DNA from: an uncultured beta proteobacterium
Lineage (GTDB): Bacteria; Pseudomonadota; Gammaproteobacteria; Burkholderiales; Nitrosomonadaceae
DNA: 64,000 nucleotides
Assembly: GCA_963704605.1 (NCBI GenBank)
Contig: OY969920.1
Span: forward strand, 1,458,191 to 1,522,190
Direction of reading: 5' to 3'
A program made the position numbers and the translations under genes. A model generated the notes under the pieces. It did no database searches. It saw only the letters and a program-made list of their open reading frames with translations, and was not told the DNA's origin. Below are positions 30,610 through 38,285 of this stretch, piece by piece; position 1 is the first letter of the stretch, and every line of letters begins with the position of its first letter.

Positions 30610-31689
30610 ATGCGGCAGATAAAATTGGATCTTGACGACAAGGCACGCGAGTTGATTGATTCGTACCGCGCAAAAGGCTTGCGCCAAGCCCGTGAGGTGA
30701 ATCGGGCGCACATTCTATCTGCACTCGATCGCGGCATTTCGGAAACGCAGATCATGGCAGTTCTTGGTATCGGGCGGACGGCCATTTGGCGAACACGCCG
30801 CGCATGCCTAGATGGCGGCGTGGAGCACGCAGTGAGAGATGTTGCTCGGCCCGGCAGGCCTAGGCAATACGATGCGGATGTAGAAGCCAAGATATCGGCC
30901 CTGGCCTGCTCAGAACCGCCCGCCGGTGCTAGGCGTTGGACGCTGGTACTACTGGAACAGGCCGCTCGGAAGCAGATTGACGTTGGTCAGATTAGTCGCG
31001 AGACCATCCGCCGCCTGCTAAAAAAACTGCGTCAAACCGTGGCGCAAGCTGACAGAGGAATATCGAGAGCGAATGCACGATCTTCTTGAACTCTATGCCC
31101 AGCCATTCCAGCCAGGAGAGCCGGTTATTTGCCTGGATGAGAAGAGCAGCAGCTGCTCAAGAATTCTCGTGCACCGTTGTCCATCCGCCCCGGAGTGCCC
31201 GTACGGCAGGATTACGAATACGTCCGCGGCGGCACCTGCAATCTGTTCGTGGCAGTGGAACCGAAAGGCGGACGGCGGACAGTCCTGGTCACCGATCGCC
31301 GCGCCAAGCTCGACTTCGTGGCCTTCGTTCAGTATCTGCTCAACACGGTCTACGCAAAGGCGCATCGTGTCCATCTGGTCATGGATAATCTCAACACCCA
31401 CTTTCGTAAATGCTTCGAAGAAGTGCTCGGGGTCAAGGCGGCGACAGCACTCCTGCGTCGCGTTGTCTTTCACTACACCCCGAAACACGCCAGCTAGTTG
31501 AACATAGCTGAAATCGAGATTGGTATCCCTGACCGCCAATGCCTGGATTGCCGCTTACCAGACCGTGCCACATTGATCGCCGAGGTCGACGCCTGGCAAC
31601 AGCGCCGCAACGCCGGTCAGTGCGGCATCGTGTGGTCGTTTACGCGGCAGGATGCAGATCTGAAAATGGCTCGACATTATGCTTCGTAA
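30610..31689 (+). mobile_element. IS630-family transposase gene, decayed (pseudogene); element ends not defined
   Basis: The HTH N-terminus is in frame 1. The frame shifts at an A7 run (~31020-31026) into frame 2 (..KPWRKLTEEYRERMHDLLELYAQPFQPGEPVICLDEKS). It shifts back at ~31148 into frame 1 (QQLLKNSRAPLSIRPGVPVRQDYEYVRGGTCNLF...VMDNLNTH...). An in-frame TAG at 31495-31497 sits where family members have W (HAS*LNIAEIE). The DDE residues are recognisable. Confidence 0.85.
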
Positions 31690-34254: not shown

Positions 34255-35124
34255 ATGCCCAAGACGAGCAAAGCAACCATAGATGTACAGGGAACCGCTG
34301 TCACGGTTATCAGCCAAGCGAGTGATGACTATATTTCCCTGACGGACATTGCCAAACACAAAGAACCGGATCGATCCGATCATGTCATCCAGAACTGGAT
34401 GAGAAACCGCAATACCATCGAGTTTCTAGGCGTATGGGAGCGGCTGAATAATGCTGGTTTTAAACCCCTCGAATTCGAGGGGTTTAAAACCAGGGCTGGT
34501 CTCAACAGTTTCGTTTTGACGCCACGTCAATGGATAGACACGACCCACGCCAGCGGACTGGTCTCCAAGTCAGGGCGCTATGGCGGAACCTACGCACACA
34601 GGGACATCGCCTTTGAATTCGCCTCATGGATATCAGTCGAGTTCAAGCTCTACCTCATCAAGGAATTCCAGCGCCTCAAAGAAGACGAGAACCGCCGCCT
34701 GTCACTCGCATGGAACCTGAATCGCACCCTTTCCAGGCTCAATTACCGCATCCATACCGACGCTATTCAGGCGCACCTGATTCCGGCCGCGGTCACCCCG
34801 GCACAAGCCGCCATCACCTACGCCAACGAAGCCGACCTGCTCAATGTCGCCCTCTTCGGCCTCACCGCCAAACAATGGCGGGACACCAACCCCAAGCTGG
34901 ACGGCAACATGCGCGATTACGCCACCATTGAGCAGTTGCTGGTGCTGGCCAATATCGAAAGCATGAATGCCGAATTTATTCACATGAGCTTATCGCAAGC
35001 CGATCGCCTCAAACGCCTCAACGAAATTGCCATCCGCCAAATGCAGGTGCTGACCGCTGCCACGGCGGTTAAGCAACTGCTGACCGGCAACAAGCAGCGT
35101 TTACCACGGAACACACAGAAATGA
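34255..35124 (+). CDS. KilA-N domain-containing DNA-binding protein
   Basis: ..DYISLTDIAKHK...IQNWMRNRNTIEFLGVWERLNN..FKPLEFEGF..AGLNSFVLTPRQWI...GRYGGTYAHRDIAFEFASWISVEFKLYLIKEFQRLKEDE matches KilA-N proteins that I recall embedded in type I R-M loci. Confidence 0.6.
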   Translation: MPKTSKATIDVQGTAVTVISQASDDYISLTDIAKHKEPDRSDHVIQNWMRNRNTIEFLGVWERLNNAGFKPLEFEGFKTRAGLNSFVLTPRQWIDTTHASGLVSKSGRYGGTYAHRDIAFEFASWISVEFKLYLIKEFQRLKEDENRRLSLAWNLNRTLSRLNYRIHTDAIQAHLIPAAVTPAQAAITYANEADLLNVALFGLTAKQWRDTNPKLDGNMRDYATIEQLLVLANIESMNAEFIHMSLSQADRLKRLNEIAIRQMQVLTAATAVKQLLTGNKQRLPRNTQK

Positions 35125-35498
35125 CGAAGCTAAAGTTCGAAGAGGAGAGCTTTCGGATTCGTGGTGCGATCTTCGAGGTTTACCGGGAGATGGGTTGCGG
35201 GTTTTTGGAGGCGGTTTATCAGGAGTGTCTTGACAAAGAATTGAAGAAGCAGAACATCGCATTCGTGGCCCAGCGGGAACTTATGTTGCGCTACAAGGGG
35301 GAGCCGTTAGCCCAGACCTACAAGCCTGACTTTATCTGCTTTGATCGGATCATTGTCGAACTCAAAGCGGTCAGGGAACTGGCGAACGAACATCGGGCGC
35401 AGGTTCACAATTACCTCAAAGCGACCGGTCTTGAACTGGGATTGCTGGTCAACTTCGGCCACCACCCGAAAGCGGAAATTGAAAGAATCGTTTTATGA
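35121..35498 (+). CDS. GxxExxY protein (PD-(D/E)XK nuclease superfamily, PDDEXK_3/TIGR04256-like)
   Basis: 125 aa with GFLEAVY (GxxExxY) and PDFICFDRIIVELK (D...ExK). The start overlaps the KilA-N stop (ATGA). Confidence 0.8.
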   Translation: MTKLKFEEESFRIRGAIFEVYREMGCGFLEAVYQECLDKELKKQNIAFVAQRELMLRYKGEPLAQTYKPDFICFDRIIVELKAVRELANEHRAQVHNYLKATGLELGLLVNFGHHPKAEIERIVL

Positions 35499-35539
35499 AA
35501 ATACAAATGAACCACGGAATGCACGAAAACCCCGGAGAG

Positions 35540-35623
35540 AACCACGGAATACACGGAACACACGGAATGGAAGACAAGACAGACAAATTTTCATCTTCCG
35601 TGTATTCAGTGTGTTCCGTGGTT
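35540..35623. repeat. Palindromic (hairpin) element, copy A, between the GxxExxY stop and the hsdM start
   Basis: The arm AACCACGGAATACACGGAACACACGGAA (35540-35567) pairs with TTCCGTGTATTCAGTGTGTTCCGTGGTT (35596-35623), 25/28 complementary by hand. An extra half-arm lies at 35509-35529. Confidence 0.85.
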
Positions 35624-35636
35624 AAATAGGATTTCC

Positions 35637-38285
35637 ATGTTAGACACCGCCACCAAACGCCGCATCGACACCGCCCGCGACATTCTCGTCGGTAAAGTGC
35701 CCGACCCGAAATCGCAAGTTGAGCAAATCACCATCGCCCTCATCTACAAGTTCATGGACGACATGGACGCCGAGAGCGAAGAACTCGGCGGCAAGCGCAA
35801 GTTCTTCACCGGCGACTACGCCCGTTTCGGCTGGGCCAAACTAATGGCGCCGAGTCTCGGCGGCCATGAACTAATCGGCATCTACGGTGAAGGCATCACC
35901 ACCATGCCGCAGAACCCCGGCATCCCCGCGCTGTTTCGTGACATCTTCAAAAACGCCTATCTGCCCTATCGCGATCCCGAGACGCTCAAGAGCTTTCTCA
36001 AAATCATCGACGAATTCAGCTACGACCATTCCGAACGCTTGGGCGATGCCTTCGAATATCTGCTCTCCGTACTTGGCTCGCAGGGCGATGCCGGGCAGTT
36101 CCGCACCCCGCGCCACATCATTGATTTTATGGTTGAAGTCACCGACCCGAAGAAGAACGAGACCGTGCTCGATCCCGCCTGCGGCACTGCTGGTTTTTTG
36201 ATCTCGTCCTACAAACACATCCTCAAGGGCAACTCTTCTCCCTCTCCCCTCGCGGGAAAGGGCCAGGGAGAGAGGGCGGCGCAACGTGCCGGTGATTTGT
36301 TGACCCCCGACGAAAAAGGCCGCCTCGCCACCAACTTCAAAGGCTACGACATCTCGCCCGACATGGTGCGCCTCAGCTTGGTGAACCTCTACCTGCACGG
36401 CTTCACCGATCCACACGTTTACGAATACGACACCCTCACCTCGGAAGAGCGCTGGAACGAATACGCCGACGTCATCCTCGCCAACCCGCCCTTCATGTCG
36501 CCCAAGGGCGGCATCAAGCCGCACAAGCGTTTTTCCATTCAGGCCAAACGCAGCGAAGTGCTGTTCGTGGACTACATGGCCGAGCACCTCACGCCCACCG
36601 GTCGCGCAGGCATCATCGTCCCCGAGGGCATCATCTTCCAGAGCCAGGGCGCCTACACCGAGCTGCGCAGGATGCTGGTGGAAAATTCGCTGGTCGCCGT
36701 GATTTCGCTCCCGGCAGGCTGTTTCAATCCCTACTCCGGGGTGAAAACCTCGATCCTGATTCTCGATAAATCCATCGCAAAACAGAGCAACAGCATCGCC
36801 TTTTTCAAGGTGGAAAACGACGGCTACGGCCTCGGCGCGCAACGCCGCGAGATTGGCAAAAACGACCTGCCTGCGGCTGCTGAGTTTTTGAAAAACTATT
36901 TGAACAACGAAAGACAAATTAACCACGGAAGACACGGAACACACGGAAAAAAGCAAACAGAAACCGCCCCCGATTTTTCTTCCGTGTATTCTGTGTCTTC
37001 CGTGGTTGAAAAGTTTTTGATCGTCCCGAAAGAAAAAATTGCCGCGAATGGCGACTACAACCTGAGTGGGGAGCGGTATCGGGAAGGTGCGGTCAGTCTA
37101 ACAACATTCCAGCTTGTAACGCTTGAAGAAGTTTTCACAAAGATTAGTAATGGCGTGAATGTCACCCAAGTGGACGAAAAGGCAAAATATCGGGTATCGC
37201 GCATTCAAACCATCGCAGATGGCTCAGTGAATCTCGAAAAAACGAAGTTTACGGATGATGAAGTGAAACCAGAATTATTTCTCCAGTCTGGTGACATCCT
37301 TCTCAGTCACATCAATAGTTTCGATCACCTTGGAAAGACCGCCATCTTTTTGGGCAACGACGCTGACGTGATTCACGGGATAAATCTGATCCGCTTAGTG
37401 CCGGATGCTTCCCGCATCGACCCGCGCTACGCGATTCGCGTTTTCAAGACAAGCCGATTCATCGATACGGTGAAGTCTTTTGCACAAAAGGCGGTCAACC
37501 AGGCTAGCGTGAAGACCTCTGACTTACGCGCAATTCAAATCCCCCTGCCGCCGCTGGACGTGCAGAAGGAAATCGTGGCGGAAATCGAGGGCTACCAGAA
37601 AGTCATCAACGGCGCCCGCGCCGTCCTCGACCACTACCGCCCCCACATCCCCATCCACCCCGATTGGCCGATTCCCACCTTCGAAGACGCGCCCTTTCAA
37701 ATCATCGACGGCGACCGGGGAGCAAACTACCCGAGCAAGGAGGATTTTTCTCCTTCGGGCCATTGCCTCTTCTTGAATACGAAGAACGTTCGCTCCGACG
37801 GATTCAAGTTCGAAGAGTTGGAGTTCATCAGTGCCGCGAAAGACAACGCCCTGCGGAAAGGTAAGCTTGAGCGTGGTGATGTGTTGCTCACAACGCGCGG
37901 GACCATCGGAAACACCGCTCTCTATGACGCGTCAGTCGCGTTCGATCACGTCCGCATCAACTCCGGCATGCTCATTTTCCGGCCGGTGGCATCCCAGCTC
38001 TCAAGCAGCTATCTCTTTCATTTCTTCCAGTCGGAAAACTTTCGAACGCAGAGGGAAGCAATCGTTTCAGGTGCCGCGCAGCCGCAGCTTCCGATTCGGA
38101 GCCTCAATGAAGCGAAAATCCCCCTCCCACCCCTCGCCACCCAGCAAGCCATCGTCGCCGAGATCGAAGCCGAGCAAGCACTGGTGGCCGCCAACCGCGA
38201 ACTGATTGCCCGCTTCGAGCAAAAAATCCAAGCCACCCTCGCCCGTATTTGGGGCGAAAACAATGCGGCCACAGCGAAGGAATAA
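35637..38285 (+). CDS. hsdM: Fused type I R-M methyltransferase-specificity protein (HsdM-HsdS in one ORF)
   Basis: 882 aa. The N-terminus KSQVEQITIALIYKFMDD, motif I LDPACGTAGFL and motif IV LANPPF are followed by an HsdM-type GDYNLSGERY. Two TRD-like regions then follow, each ending in an HsdS conserved helix (IQIPLPPLDVQKEIVAEIEGYQ.. and AKIPLPPLATQQAIVAEIEAEQ..). Confidence 0.85.
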   Translation: MLDTATKRRIDTARDILVGKVPDPKSQVEQITIALIYKFMDDMDAESEELGGKRKFFTGDYARFGWAKLMAPSLGGHELIGIYGEGITTMPQNPGIPALFRDIFKNAYLPYRDPETLKSFLKIIDEFSYDHSERLGDAFEYLLSVLGSQGDAGQFRTPRHIIDFMVEVTDPKKNETVLDPACGTAGFLISSYKHILKGNSSPSPLAGKGQGERAAQRAGDLLTPDEKGRLATNFKGYDISPDMVRLSLVNLYLHGFTDPHVYEYDTLTSEERWNEYADVILANPPFMSPKGGIKPHKRFSIQAKRSEVLFVDYMAEHLTPTGRAGIIVPEGIIFQSQGAYTELRRMLVENSLVAVISLPAGCFNPYSGVKTSILILDKSIAKQSNSIAFFKVENDGYGLGAQRREIGKNDLPAAAEFLKNYLNNERQINHGRHGTHGKKQTETAPDFSSVYSVSSVVEKFLIVPKEKIAANGDYNLSGERYREGAVSLTTFQLVTLEEVFTKISNGVNVTQVDEKAKYRVSRIQTIADGSVNLEKTKFTDDEVKPELFLQSGDILLSHINSFDHLGKTAIFLGNDADVIHGINLIRLVPDASRIDPRYAIRVFKTSRFIDTVKSFAQKAVNQASVKTSDLRAIQIPLPPLDVQKEIVAEIEGYQKVINGARAVLDHYRPHIPIHPDWPIPTFEDAPFQIIDGDRGANYPSKEDFSPSGHCLFLNTKNVRSDGFKFEELEFISAAKDNALRKGKLERGDVLLTTRGTIGNTALYDASVAFDHVRINSGMLIFRPVASQLSSSYLFHFFQSENFRTQREAIVSGAAQPQLPIRSLNEAKIPLPPLATQQAIVAEIEAEQALVAANRELIARFEQKIQATLARIWGENNAATAKE
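36921..37007. repeat. Palindromic (hairpin) element, copy B, in frame inside the hsdM-S ORF
   Basis: The arm AACCACGGAAGACACGGAACACACGGAA (36921-36948) pairs with TTCCGTGTATTCTGTGTCTTCCGTGGTT (36980-37007), 26/28 complementary. It is translated as INHGRHGTHGKKQTETAPDFSSVYSVSSVV. Confidence 0.85.

What the first reader, a model, noticed from the sequence alone, without database searches (positions are those of the whole stretch)
35509..37020. Palindromic ~88-nt element: one copy behind the GxxExxY gene, one inserted in frame (129 bp, 9-bp direct repeats) inside hsdM-S
Two copies of the same hairpin element are visible. The arm AACCACGGAA(T/G)ACACGGAACACACGGAA (35540-35567; 36921-36948) pairs with TTCCGTGTATTC(A/T)GTGT(G/C)TTCCGTGGTT (35596-35623; 36980-37007). 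Complementarity is 25/28 and 26/28 by hand. The loops are 28-31 nt, A/C-rich, and end in ATTTT. Copy A fills most of the only sizeable gap in the R-M operon, running from the GxxExxY stop to 13 nt before the hsdM ATG, and has an extra half-arm at 35509-35529. Copy B lies inside the 882-codon ORF, has no stop, and is read as INHGRHGTHGKKQTETAPDFSSVYSVSSVV. It is bracketed by a 9-bp direct repeat, AGTTTTTGA (36883-36891 and 37012-37020), exactly 129 bp (43 codons) apart. Deleting one repeat plus the intervening DNA restores a plausible ...PAAAEFLIVPKEKIAANGDYNLSGERY... The sequence just 5' of each hairpin is also similar (GAAAATACAAATG / GAAAGACAAATT). This looks like a small mobile or recombinogenic palindromic element linked to the GxxExxY PD-(D/E)XK gene. 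It has landed in a methyltransferase ORF without breaking it, adding a structured RNA segment and a His/Gly- then Ser/Val-rich linker between the MTase core and its C-terminal motif. From memory, I have seen similar repeat-derived peptides (HG.HG... / ..SV.SVV) flanking GxxExxY genes in other genomes. I know of no description of them as an element.
Basis: partly seen in the sequence, partly recalled or inferred. Interest (0 to 1): 0.72.

Follow-up and report, generated by a model that had tools for sequence, protein, structure and literature searches.

The report
Iterated hairpin repeats flanking GxxExxY genes
The two hairpins are real copies of a sharply bounded palindromic DNA element made of repeated 9-base units, which brackets a widespread family of small nuclease genes (GxxExxY) in at least 15 bacterial phyla, also occurs widely on its own, and here sits once inside a DNA-methylase gene without breaking it.

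Summary
Both hairpins exist at the stated coordinates (25/28 and 26/28 complementary; fold z −4.9 to −8.6). Each arm is three 9-nt units (ACACGGAAn) with sharp outer ends, RACCACGG…CCGTGGTY.

The link to GxxExxY is strong. In 80 genomic loci from ≥15 phyla, 72 GxxExxY ORFs carry such arms directly at their ends. The usual layout is armL–ORF–armR. The unit's core varies by lineage, and all six units of a cassette tend to change together.

Orthologue comparison shows the HsdM insert is absent from most relatives. It lies in a hypervariable linker invaded by at least four palindromic element types. In 6 of 6 loci with a unit-repeat linker hairpin, its type matches the GxxExxY cassette next to hsdM.

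Its left repeat lies in ancestral coding sequence, and 180 solo hairpins show no target-site duplication.

About 93% of solo hairpins are not next to a GxxExxY gene. The closest analogue is the REPIN/RAYT pairing, but with a PD-(D/E)XK nuclease. No Rfam family and no paper matched.

How the element spreads is inferred, not shown. The most likely route is nuclease-linked copying that leaves no duplication.

The parts
34255..35124 (+). KilA-N domain gene of the R-M operon. Its last six codons (PRNTQK*) are encoded by the upstream arm of the cassette.
   Evidence: Pfam KilA-N E 1.4e-23. C-terminus compared with L095 and L098.
35104..35121 (.). Upstream arm remnant ACCACGGAACACACAGAA (two units). 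It abuts the GxxExxY ATG and marks the left end of the cassette.
   Evidence: The homologous full arm lies directly before the ATG in L095 and in 35 of 80 other loci.
35121..35498 (+). GxxExxY protein gene (125 aa, PD-(D/E)XK superfamily).
   Evidence: PF13366 E 6.9e-43 and TIGR04256 E 4.5e-42. D70/E80/K82 and G27xxE30xxY33 are invariant in 37 homologues.
35497..35508 (+). Conserved 12-nt leader (GAAAATACAAAT) between the GxxExxY stop and the first arm. It has the same motif as the stretch 5' of copy B.
   Evidence: family D3. It recurs in L095 and L309.
35509..35529 (.). Extra half-arm (two units: AACCACGGAATGCACGAAAA).
35540..35567 (.). Copy A, 5' arm (three 9-nt units).
   Evidence: (I5).
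35568..35595 (.). Copy A, loop (28 nt).
35596..35623 (.). Copy A, 3' arm. It is the right end of the cassette, 13 nt before the hsdM ATG.
   Evidence: Boundary set by comparison with the empty site in L098.
35637..38285 (+). hsdM-S fusion gene (882 aa), which hosts copy B in a hypervariable linker.
   Evidence: N6_Mtase E 2.1e-46 and Methylase_S. Orthologue alignment A1.
36908..36920 (+). 5' flank of copy B (CGAAAGACAAATT), similar to the leader of copy A. It is absent from the L095-type alleles.
   Evidence: (D3).
36921..36948 (.). Copy B, 5' arm, read as NHGRHGTHG.
36949..36979 (.). Copy B, loop (31 nt), read as KKQTETAPDF. It is homologous to the loop of the L095 and L309 inserts.
36980..37007 (.). 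Copy B, 3' arm, read as SSVYSVSSVV.
36883..36891 (+). Left copy of the 9-bp direct repeat AGTTTTTGA. It lies in ancestral coding sequence and is probably not an element boundary.
37012..37020 (+). Right copy of the 9-bp direct repeat AGTTTTTGA.

Best explanation
The hairpins are copies of a discrete palindromic module. Each has two inverted arrays of three 9-bp units (ACACGGAAn) with sharp ends, RACCACGG...CCGTGGTY. This module is the characteristic flank of GxxExxY (PF13366/TIGR04256) PD-(D/E)XK nuclease gene cassettes.

In this window a cassette sits between the KilA-N gene and hsdM of a horizontally transferred type I R-M operon. Its layout is arm remnant, GxxExxY ORF, 12-nt leader, half-arm, full hairpin. 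Copy A is the cassette's own 3' hairpin. Copy B is an ORF-less copy of the same unit type. It lies 1.3 kb downstream, in a permissive and repeatedly invaded linker of HsdM. It persists there because the arms carry almost no stop codons and it happens to be in frame.

Shown:
- the discrete element and its sharp ends;
- its near-obligatory association with GxxExxY ORFs across phyla;
- cassette-specific sameness of all six units;
- the insertion polymorphism in hsdM;
- the type match between the linker hairpin and the neighbouring cassette;
- the absence of target-site duplications.

Inferred:
- The units are recognition sites (iterons) for a protein, most simply the encoded nuclease.
- ORF-less hairpins arise or spread by a process that makes no duplication. 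Candidates are nuclease-triggered gene conversion (homing) and a single-strand hairpin mechanism as in REP/IS200-type elements. DDE-type transposition is not a candidate.

The relation of many solo hairpins to few nuclease genes parallels REPINs and their RAYT genes.
For: - Element reality and statistics.
- 80 GxxExxY loci (62-82% aa identity, at least 15 phyla). 72 of 80 have arms within 60 nt upstream or 200 nt downstream. Arm density is about 30-fold above distal flanks.
- 40 of 76 ORFs are bracketed by an inverted repeat scoring 14 or more, against a shuffle maximum of 8-13.
- The gap between arms is bimodal: 100 nt or less, or 350-600 nt.
- In 35 distinct cassettes 91% of cells pair, and 18 of 27 pairs change on both sides; 0 of 500 shuffles reach this.
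- All six units share one core variant in 22 of 35 cassettes, against 3.9 expected if only pairing mattered. Spacer bases are unpaired in 46%.
- Arm type follows the protein's nearest neighbour in 58 of 69 loci (null 31.8).
- Distant family members (37% identity, Bacteroides) keep the layout with another unit, CACAGAGGA.
- Empty site (L098) against occupied sites (window, L095) puts the cassette ends at the outer ends of the arms.
- Sharp inverted-repeat ends and no 2-8-bp TSD in 180 solo hairpins.
- HsdM linker: the basal form occurs in about 61 of 98 orthologues; the CACGGAA hairpin occurs in 7 of these 98 and in the window allele.
- Type match is 6 of 6: window, L095, L306 and L309 are CACGGAA; L302 and L307 are ACAGGAT.
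- A second methylase family (PF01555, L118) carries an in-frame hairpin beside a cassette.
- Catalytic residues are invariant.
- Stem mismatches show no G:U excess on the sense strand, 22 against 33.
Against: - No biochemical or population evidence of movement.
- Only about 7% of perfect solo hairpins in metagenome contigs lie within 300 nt of a GxxExxY gene, and none of the 88 IMG/VR loci that carry the arm motif holds one. Dependence of the hairpins on the nuclease is therefore unproven.
- The cassette occupies a conserved syntenic position in ten Verrucomicrobiota genomes. That looks like stable inheritance rather than mobility.
- The type match could reflect as few as two ancestral events followed by co-inheritance of tightly linked DNA.
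- One locus (L099) has a CACGGAA cassette but an unrelated palindrome in the linker.
- Three loci have the linker hairpin without any GxxExxY gene (L098, L305, L304), and so does L308.
- Protein identity within and between unit types hardly differs, 0.639 against 0.626. Protein-unit co-evolution is therefore not shown.
- The fold search gives only generic, non-significant PD-(D/E)XK matches.
Confidence: 0.58

Rival explanations
1. Hairpin first. The unit-repeat hairpins are an independent, widely dispersed REP-like genomic element kept or spread by some other factor. GxxExxY genes are selfish homing-type genes that insert preferentially into or beside such hairpins. The link would then be target preference, and copy B would have nothing to do with the neighbouring gene.
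For: - More than 90% of solo hairpins have no GxxExxY gene nearby.
- The commonest layout, armL-ORF-armR with arms 0-20 nt from the start and stop codons, is what insertion of an ORF into a hairpin loop would give.
- Small PD-(D/E)XK homing endonucleases are known (own knowledge: I-Ssp6803I).
Against: - The linker hairpin type matches the adjacent cassette in 6 of 6 loci across two unit types.
- Arm type follows the protein's nearest neighbour in 58 of 69 loci. Distant family members carry their own unit variants. Arms and ORF therefore travel together.
- In 64 kb of this genome the motif occurs only around the cassette.
Confidence: 0.2
2. RNA-level element. The arms pair in the operon transcript. 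The stem would be an RNase III-type processing or stabilising structure that frees or insulates the GxxExxY message, as with ORF-bearing intervening sequences of 23S rRNA. It could also shield the downstream mRNA's 5' end. Copy B would be an accidental duplicate tolerated in the mRNA.
For: - The RNA folds are very stable on both strands.
- Cassettes share the orientation of their neighbours: 63 of 76 downstream and 57 of 67 upstream ORFs. They are therefore transcribed within operons.
- Arms abut the start and stop codons.
- Copy A and many solo hairpins sit just upstream of a gene start.
Against: - No excess of G:U-type over A:C-type mismatches on the sense strand, 22 against 33, with 71 other mismatches.
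- Spacer positions are unpaired in 46%.
- All six units share a variant far more often than pairing requires.
- No Rfam family matches.
- There is no T-run terminator signature.
- 40 loci and the window show no rRNA context.
Confidence: 0.14
3. Integron-like gene cassette. The hairpin is an attC-type recombination site, and GxxExxY is one cargo gene moved by an integron integrase.
For: - The layout of an ORF followed by an imperfect palindrome of 60-140 nt fits.
- The element ends AAC...GTT in both unit types. The flank logo TTRAC...GTYAA faintly recalls RYYYAAC/GTTRRRY.
Against: - The arms are tied to one ORF family rather than to diverse cargo.
- Cassettes occur singly inside operons, not in arrays.
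- The stems are near-perfect unit repeats without the usual attC bulges.
- No integrase appeared among the 25 families listed of 77 that matched 39 of the 46 window ORFs of 180 aa or more. That is not an exhaustive check.
Confidence: 0.03
4. No element. The two hairpins are chance palindromes or local slippage products with no wider meaning.
For: None beyond the low-complexity look of the arms.
Against: - 11 hits against 0.5 expected in the window.
- Fold z-scores down to -8.6.
Confidence: 0.01

Closest known systems
REP/REPIN elements and their RAYT genes (REP-associated tyrosine transposases). Own knowledge: Nunvar et al. 2010; Bertels and Rainey 2011.
   Same: - Short imperfect palindromes are dispersed mostly between genes.
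- Inverted doublets form hairpins.
- A dedicated small enzyme gene is itself flanked by the repeats in inverted orientation.
- Repeats are many and enzyme genes few.
- There are no target-site duplications.
- The enzyme gene is often stably inherited.
   Different: - The flanked gene is a PD-(D/E)XK nuclease (PF13366), not an HUH/Y1 IS200-type transposase.
- The arms are built from three iterated 9-bp units.
- The element and gene are shared at 62-82% protein identity across at least 15 phyla, rather than being lineage-specific.
- Some copies lie in frame inside genes.
Rickettsia palindromic elements (RPE). Own knowledge: Ogata et al. 2000, 'Selfish DNA in protein-coding genes of Rickettsia'.
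   Same: A palindromic repeat of about 100 nt is inserted in frame in a protein-coding gene. It is translated as an extra peptide at a tolerant site, and the host protein stays intact.
   Different: - No known enzyme gene is linked to RPEs. Here the repeat is the flank of a nuclease gene.
- The sequence, unit structure and taxa differ.
- Most copies here are intergenic. Many apparent in-frame cases turned out to lie in 5' leaders.
Bacterial MITEs (e.g. Correia, ERIC, Nezha).
   Same: Small size, terminal inverted repeats, hairpin potential, occasional in-frame or co-transcribed insertion, and an ORF-bearing and an ORF-less form of about 85 and 500 nt.
   Different: - There is no target-site duplication.
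- The ORF-bearing form encodes no known transposase.
ORF-bearing intervening sequences of 23S rRNA (Leptospira or Coxiella type, PF05635 four-helix-bundle ORF).
   Same: A small ORF of about 120 aa is enclosed by a long inverted repeat. The carried gene families also ride along in R-M loci; a PF05635 gene lies in the same R-M locus in L307.
   Different: The cassette is not in rRNA, the ORF family is different, and the arms are unit repeats.
Transposon ends with multiple iterated binding sites (Mu L1-L3/R1-R3, Tn7 TnsB sites; TnsA is a PD-(D/E)XK nuclease). Own knowledge.
   Same: Each end carries about three repeats of one recognition motif in inverted orientation. A PD-(D/E)XK enzyme can cut transposon ends.
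   Different: No DDE partner protein is present, there is no TSD, and the element is 50-100 times smaller.

Membership tests
GxxExxY / PDDEXK_3 protein family (TIGR04256, PF13366), for the ORF 35121-35498 | Scores above the curated cut-off of the family models | tested here: met
   PF13366 scores 146 bits (cut-off 22). TIGR04256 scores 143 bits (cut-off 35).
GxxExxY / PDDEXK_3 protein family | GxxExxY motif and the PD...(D/E)xK catalytic residues | tested here: met
   G27-E30-Y33, P69-D70 and E80-L-K82 are invariant in 37 homologues.
GxxExxY / PDDEXK_3 protein family | PD-(D/E)XK fold | tested here: inconclusive
   The AF2 model has pLDDT 73.5. The best Foldseek hits are all PD-(D/E)XK enzymes (Cas4 4ic1 at E 0.012, DrdV, Bax1, EndA, T7 endo I, Hjc, XisH), but none reaches E 0.001. 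There is no PDB sequence hit.
REP/REPIN-RAYT system | Dispersed short imperfect palindromes, mainly extragenic, in many copies | tested here: met
Pfam shows that most copies lying in long open frames are really upstream of the gene. The copy number within one genome could not be measured.
REP/REPIN-RAYT system | The associated gene is flanked by the repeats in inverted orientation | tested here: met
REP/REPIN-RAYT system | The associated gene encodes an HUH/Y1 (IS200/IS605 TnpA-like) transposase | tested here: not met
   The gene is a PD-(D/E)XK protein with no Y1_Tnp hit.
REP/REPIN-RAYT system | No target-site duplication | tested here: met
MITE | Terminal inverted repeats and small size | tested here: met
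   Arms of 28-30 bp, whole element about 85 bp, sharp ends.
MITE | Flanking target-site duplication | tested here: not met
   Of 180 solo hairpins, at most 1 has a 5-bp and none a 6- or 8-bp flanking duplication, no more than the null. Counts for 2-4 bp equal the null. The 9-bp repeat around copy B is not at the element end.
MITE | A parent autonomous element encoding a transposase | tested here: inconclusive
   The ORF-bearing form exists, but its protein is a nuclease of unknown activity.
Rickettsia palindromic element-like in-frame repeats | Palindromic repeat inserted in frame, host ORF intact, insert absent from orthologues | tested here: met
   Copy B. Also L094, L095, L305, L306, L309 and the ACAGGAT-type inserts in L302, L304, L307 and L308.
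Rickettsia palindromic element-like in-frame repeats | Sequence membership in an RPE family | not tested
   No RPE reference sequences were on hand. The unit structure and the taxa make membership unlikely.
23S rRNA intervening sequence with ORF | Inserted in a 23S rRNA helix | tested here: not met
   No rRNA match in the window or in 40 GxxExxY loci.
Integron gene cassette / attC | Arrays of diverse ORFs each followed by attC, next to intI | tested here: not met
   There is a single cassette inside an R-M operon. The motif occurs nowhere else in 64 kb. No integrase is among the listed families (which shows only 25 of 77).
Integron gene cassette / attC | R''/R' cores RYYYAAC...GTTRRRY and extrahelical bases | tested here: inconclusive
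   The ends are AAC...GTT with weak TT/AA flanks. No attC model was available.
Intrinsic terminator | G+C-rich stem followed by a T-run | tested here: not met
   The scan found no terminator-like site for either full hairpin. Only small sub-hairpins on the - strand appeared, at chance level.
Any Rfam RNA family | Score at or above the gathering threshold | tested here: not met
   There are 0 matches in the window. Below threshold only generic miRNA-precursor hairpin models match.

The most novel reading that the evidence does not exclude
GxxExxY (PF13366) nucleases and their cognate unit-repeat hairpins form a previously unrecognised selfish system that spans many phyla. It would be a PD-(D/E)XK counterpart of the REPIN-RAYT partnership. 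The nuclease would recognise the 9-bp units and cut at the hairpin or cruciform. Repair would then seed or re-template ORF-less hairpins in nearby and distant DNA without target duplication, including in frame in protein-coding genes such as DNA methyltransferases. That would assign a function to a very large family of unknown function and explain the common HGxHG / TExTE / SVxSV / FRVFR peptides in predicted proteomes.
Probability: 0.35. Interest if true: 0.85.

Novelty: new variant of a known kind. Interest (0 to 1): 0.72.

Why it matters
- PF13366/TIGR04256 is a very large protein family. Its function is still listed as unknown (PMC3424549).
- Its genes are almost always bracketed by a specific unit-repeat inverted repeat, and the same repeat occurs widely on its own. 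This gives the family a concrete candidate nucleic-acid substrate that can be tested.
- It suggests a new enzyme class for a repeat-plus-enzyme partnership of the REPIN/RAYT kind.
- It explains a recurrent class of odd low-complexity peptides, N-terminal and C-terminal extensions, and assembly breaks in metagenomes. It therefore matters for gene calling.
- It documents a linker in a type I methylase-specificity fusion that tolerates at least four kinds of palindromic insert. That is useful for engineering and for understanding how R-M and defence islands pick up selfish passengers.

Tried and rejected
- Rfam, at gathering and permissive thresholds. Only generic long-hairpin miRNA models matched below threshold.
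- Literature searches for GxxExxY, PF13366, PDDEXK_3, TIGR04256, the arm sequences of three unit types, and PDDEXK plus palindromic. Nothing describes the element. The PF05635 papers concern the other passenger family.
- BLASTN of copy A against PLSDB plasmids gave no match.
- Single-sequence AlphaFold gave a useless model, pLDDT 44. It was redone with an alignment.
- Counting in-frame hairpins as those inside long stop-free frames (15 of 49 and 40 of 87). I rejected this as an estimate. Pfam domains showed that the tested long frames are mostly read-through of 5' leaders in high-GC DNA.
- Testing whether solo loops are relics of the ORF ends. The result was formally significant but confounded, because some cassette '3' ends' are themselves solo loops. 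It is not used.
- G:U asymmetry as an RNA signature: none.
- Target-site duplications: none.
- Looking for an empty or solo-hairpin version of the conserved Verrucomicrobiota site: none among the loci held.
- Whole-element shuffles as a control for stop-codon depletion are unfair, because the two arms differ in composition. Only the loop result is usable, 4.5 against 3.6 open frames.
- The source organism could not be named. The gene content looks proteobacterial.

Full report
**1. The observation**

- Copy A has 28-nt arms at 35540-35567 and 35596-35623, 25/28 complementary, with a 28-nt loop.
- Copy B has arms at 36921-36948 and 36980-37007, 26/28 complementary, with a 31-nt loop.
- Both fold far better than shuffles, as RNA on either strand (z -4.9 to -8.6) and as DNA (z -7.3 and -7.9).
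- Each arm is three units of a 9-nt repeat, ACACGGAAn, behind a terminal AACC.
- The pattern CACGGAANNCACGGAA, allowing up to 2 mismatches, gives 11 hits in the 64-kb window against 0.5 expected. Ten of them lie between 35105 and 37004.
- Besides the half-arm at 35509-35529, there is an arm remnant (ACCACGGAACACACAGAA, 35104-35121) directly before the GxxExxY start codon. The gene itself is therefore bracketed.

The neighbouring genes are hsdR, a KilA-N gene, the GxxExxY/PDDEXK_3 gene, an 882-codon hsdM-S fusion and a DUF3644 gene. Copy B is read in frame.

**2. The link to GxxExxY genes**

Relatives of the 125-aa protein are extremely common and unusually conserved.
- The protein search hit its 8,000-candidate ceiling, and its 120 best hits are all at least 77% identical.
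- A scan of one genome per species found 235 relatives. The best 80 are 62-82% identical and come from Proteobacteria, Verrucomicrobiota, Planctomycetota, Chloroflexota, Bacteroidota, Spirochaetota, Nitrospirota, Latescibacterota, Fibrobacterota, Calditrichota, Hydrogenedentota and others.

Reading the flanks of these 80 ORFs gave the following.
- Nearly all are bracketed by the same kind of arms.
- Two-unit arm seeds reach 13-15 per kb in the 100 nt on either side of the ORF. They fall to 0.5 per kb or less beyond 500 nt.
- 72 of 80 loci have an arm within 60 nt upstream or 200 nt downstream.
- The commonest layout is armL-ORF-armR, in 35 of 80.
- 40 of 76 ORFs are spanned by an inverted repeat scoring 14 or more, where shuffles reach 8-13.
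- The distance between a 5' arm and the next 3' arm is bimodal: 100 nt or less (solo hairpins) or 350-600 nt (ORF inside).
- The window's layout, armL-ORF-[armL-loop-armR], recurs in L095, L099, L102, L104, L106-L108 and L309.
- Distant family members keep the architecture with other units. Examples are CACAGAGGA in a Bacteroides plasmid gene (37% identity) and ACAGGAT in two R-M loci.

**3. What the arms look like in detail**

- Across 35 distinct cassettes, 91% of arm positions pair. 18 of 27 pairs show changes on both sides. No shuffle or slid register comes close.
- The variable core position (GGAA against GAAA) covaries perfectly: AU 18-20, GC 15, none unpaired. The spacer base of each unit is unpaired in 46% of cassettes.
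- All six units of a cassette share one core variant in 22 of 35 cases. Only 3.9 would be expected if pairing between partner units were all that mattered.
- Stem mismatches show no excess of G:U-type over A:C-type on the sense strand: 22 against 33, with 71 others.

Together these results favour inverted arrays of a recognised motif (iterons) over a purely RNA-structural stem. This is an inference.

- In 180 distinct solo hairpins, complementarity stops abruptly at the outer end: 0.71 at position -1 and about 0.3 beyond. The consensus is TT-RACCACGG...CCGTGGTY-AA.
- There is no flanking direct repeat of 2-8 bp above the null.
- The arms are almost free of stop codons in all six frames (5.8 of 6 open). 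Loops are mildly depleted of stops.

**4. The cassette as an insertion**

The same R-M operon exists in three forms:
- without KilA-N and GxxExxY (L096);
- with KilA-N abutting hsdM (L098, L305, L308);
- with KilA-N-GxxExxY-hsdM (window, L095; the upstream gene is cut or unannotated in L306 and L309).

Comparing the empty junction with the occupied ones places the cassette ends at the outer ends of the arms. The empty junction is AAGTAATGCTCGAC in L098. The native hsdM leader..AAGGAAT..ATG, resumes just after CCGTGGTT. In the window, the KilA-N reading frame now ends inside the upstream arm, as PRNTQK*. L095 holds a tandem duplicate of [hairpin + leader + the first 27 nt of hsdM]. This shows that the region recombines.

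**5. Copy B**

HsdM orthologues are about 80% identical and are spread over many orders, so the system moves horizontally. In the alignment, the stretch between KNDLP and LIVPKEKIAANGDYNLSGERY is hypervariable.

Among the 98 of the 120 listed orthologues in which the flanking anchor motifs could be found:
- about 61 have a basal linker of 37-39 aa (..AELAAYLQALRSGQSTDELQPTCG..);
- 7 carry a CACGGAA hairpin, as does the window allele;
- 14 carry an ACAGGAT-unit hairpin (MDRQDGQDK..SCPSCSSM);
- 9 carry an EPSPxGRGQGEG palindrome;
- a few carry a FRHSRA..GNP type.

The insert is therefore real and not ancestral. However, EFLKNYLN of the window aligns with AELAAYLQ, so the left copy of the 9-bp repeat lies in ancestral sequence. 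The L095, L305, L306 and L309 alleles lack that repeat. In those alleles the hairpin starts directly after the codon for N of ..YLN (TTGAAC|CACGG). Relative to the basal allele, the hairpin replaces about 16 codons. The window and L094 inserts carry an extra 15 nt (AACGAAAGACAAATT). Its last 12 nt resemble the leader that follows the GxxExxY stop codon. This points to the cassette's 3' hairpin as the source.

**6. Type matching**

Wherever a GxxExxY cassette lies next to hsdM and the linker holds a unit-repeat hairpin, the two are of the same unit type.
- CACGGAA in the window, L095, L306 and L309.
- ACAGGAT in L302 and L307. There the arms are even read as N- and C-terminal extensions of the GxxExxY protein.

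That is 6 of 6. No crossed combination was seen. One locus (L099) has an unrelated palindrome in the linker. Four loci have a hairpin but no cassette (L098, L304, L305, L308).

Because the sites are only 1.3 kb apart and are co-inherited, this may reflect as few as two independent events. It still couples cassette and hairpin at least twice. A second, unrelated methylase (PF01555) next to a cassette in Nitrosomonas mobilis also carries an in-frame hairpin.

**7. Solo hairpins at large**

- The three-unit arm occurs in 88 IMG/VR loci with G+C from 33 to 72%.
- A family HMM finds a GxxExxY gene within 300 nt of only 10 of 123 such hairpins. The figure is 5 of 77 for hairpins with 600 nt or more on both sides. 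None of the 88 viral loci holds the gene.

The relation is therefore asymmetric: P(arms | gene) is about 0.9, and P(gene | hairpin) is about 0.07. Many hairpins lie in long stop-free frames. Pfam shows that most of these are just upstream of the true gene start. Genuine in-frame coding copies are therefore the minority.

**8. The protein**

- The PD..ExK catalytic residues and the GxxExxY motif are invariant.
- There is no solved relative by sequence.
- An AlphaFold model built from 37 homologues (pLDDT 73.5) matches only PD-(D/E)XK enzymes, and weakly. The hits are Cas4, DrdV, Bax1, splicing endonucleases, T7 endonuclease I, Hjc and XisH. None has E of 0.001 or lower.
- The only literature statement on PF13366 found here lists its function as unknown, with multiple transfers.

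**9. Context**

- Cassettes share the orientation of their neighbours: 63 of 76 downstream and 57 of 67 upstream ORFs.
- About 17 of 76 downstream genes are R-M or BREX components.
- Ten are the same FtsX/MacB permease gene in Verrucomicrobiota. That position is conserved and syntenic, which argues for long-term vertical retention there.
- No rRNA context was found.

**10. Interpretation**

The descriptive core is well supported. It comprises a discrete unit-repeat palindrome that flanks GxxExxY genes, one copy belonging to the cassette, and one ORF-less copy of matching type lodged in a permissive HsdM linker.

The mechanism is inferred. My best reading is that the units are protein-recognition sites, most simply for the encoded nuclease. 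ORF-less hairpins would then be produced or re-templated without target duplication, by nuclease-triggered gene conversion or by a single-strand hairpin route.

The main rival reverses the direction: the hairpins come first, and the gene homes into them. An RNA-processing role is possible, but neither the mismatch pattern nor the sameness of the units supports it.

The system works like REPIN/RAYT, and copy B behaves like a Rickettsia palindromic element. It fails the defining test of each family:
- the enzyme is not a Y1 transposase;
- there is no TSD, so it is not a MITE;
- it is not in rRNA, so it is not an IVS.

I rate it a new variant of a known kind.

Noticed in passing
window 36237-36300: There is a second in-frame palindromic indel in hsdM (TCTCCCTCTCCCCTCGCGGGAAAGGGCCAGGGAGAGAGGG, read as SSPSPLAGKGQGERAAQRAG). 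It is present in roughly half of 98 orthologues and replaced by 'DAKGHS' in the rest. The same kind of element (EPSPxGRGQGEG) sits in the downstream linker of 9 other orthologues. Its own fold is not better than shuffles.
   Followed up: partly
window 36860-37030, and the homologous linker in P0001-P0120: The HsdM linker after KNDLP..YLN carries at least four different palindromic element types in different orthologues: CACGGAA units, ACAGGAT units, the SPSP/GEG type and the FRHSRA..GNP type. It is an insertion hot spot or a uniquely tolerant site.
   Followed up: partly
window 35104-35124: The KilA-N ORF ends in arm-encoded residues, PRNTQK*, and its stop overlaps the GxxExxY ATG (ATGA). In L302 and L307 the arms are translated as N- and C-terminal extensions of the GxxExxY protein itself (MDSQDLQD.. 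/ ..HPVYPVHPC*). Such arm read-through probably explains the 127-150-aa variants in the protein database.
   Followed up: partly
L095 4750-4998: In a Rugosibacter MAG there is a tandem duplication of [hairpin + hsdM leader + the first 27 nt of hsdM]. The junction resembles the 3' end of a GxxExxY gene, which is evidence of recombination at the hairpins. Patatin and CD-NTase (CBASS-like) genes follow hsdM there.
   Followed up: partly
L108 3390-3880: Five tandem hairpins lie about 103 nt apart downstream of a GxxExxY gene in a Caldilineaceae MAG. L106, L236, L254 and L284 have two adjacent hairpins.
   Followed up: no
L015, L025, L027, L037, L042 (IMG/VR, G+C 65-69%): Single arms without an inverted partner recur in the same orientation every 0.7-3 kb. 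They sit at the 5' ends of genes on the other strand, where they would be read as N-termini such as M..SVSSVFSVG. No GxxExxY gene is present in these loci. This may be a different use of the same motif.
   Followed up: no
L114, L120, L152, L155, L156, L165, L169, L173, L175, L177: In Verrucomicrobiota (Opitutaceae to Akkermansia) the GxxExxY cassette sits at one conserved position, directly upstream of an FtsX/MacB-type permease gene (M.FILKMAWRDSRA..). This suggests old, vertically kept insertions.
   Followed up: partly
L307 230-445: A PF05635 (23S rRNA intervening-sequence / four-helix-bundle, Avd-like) gene lies just upstream of hsdR in the same R-M locus that carries a GxxExxY cassette. 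Two passenger gene families therefore share one operon. No arms were obvious around it.
   Followed up: no
window 30610-31501: Directly upstream of hsdR there is an ORF with HTH_32/HTH_23/HTH_29 domains, followed by an overlapping ORF with no family. This could be a transposase remnant marking the edge of the R-M island.
   Followed up: no
L089-L093 (Logan contigs identical to the window): All five independent metagenome contigs that carry the identical GxxExxY gene begin at the same point, 657 nt upstream of it. This suggests a repeat or a strain-variable junction inside the KilA-N gene that breaks assemblies.
   Followed up: no
L301 (Fusobacteria plasmid pZRK30-1) around 1501-1875: This distant GxxExxY gene is flanked by a 22-nt direct repeat, CAGATTTAATCCGTGTACCTAT, not an inverted one. 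A Treponema plasmid gene has only a single-unit 11-nt inverted repeat.
   Followed up: no
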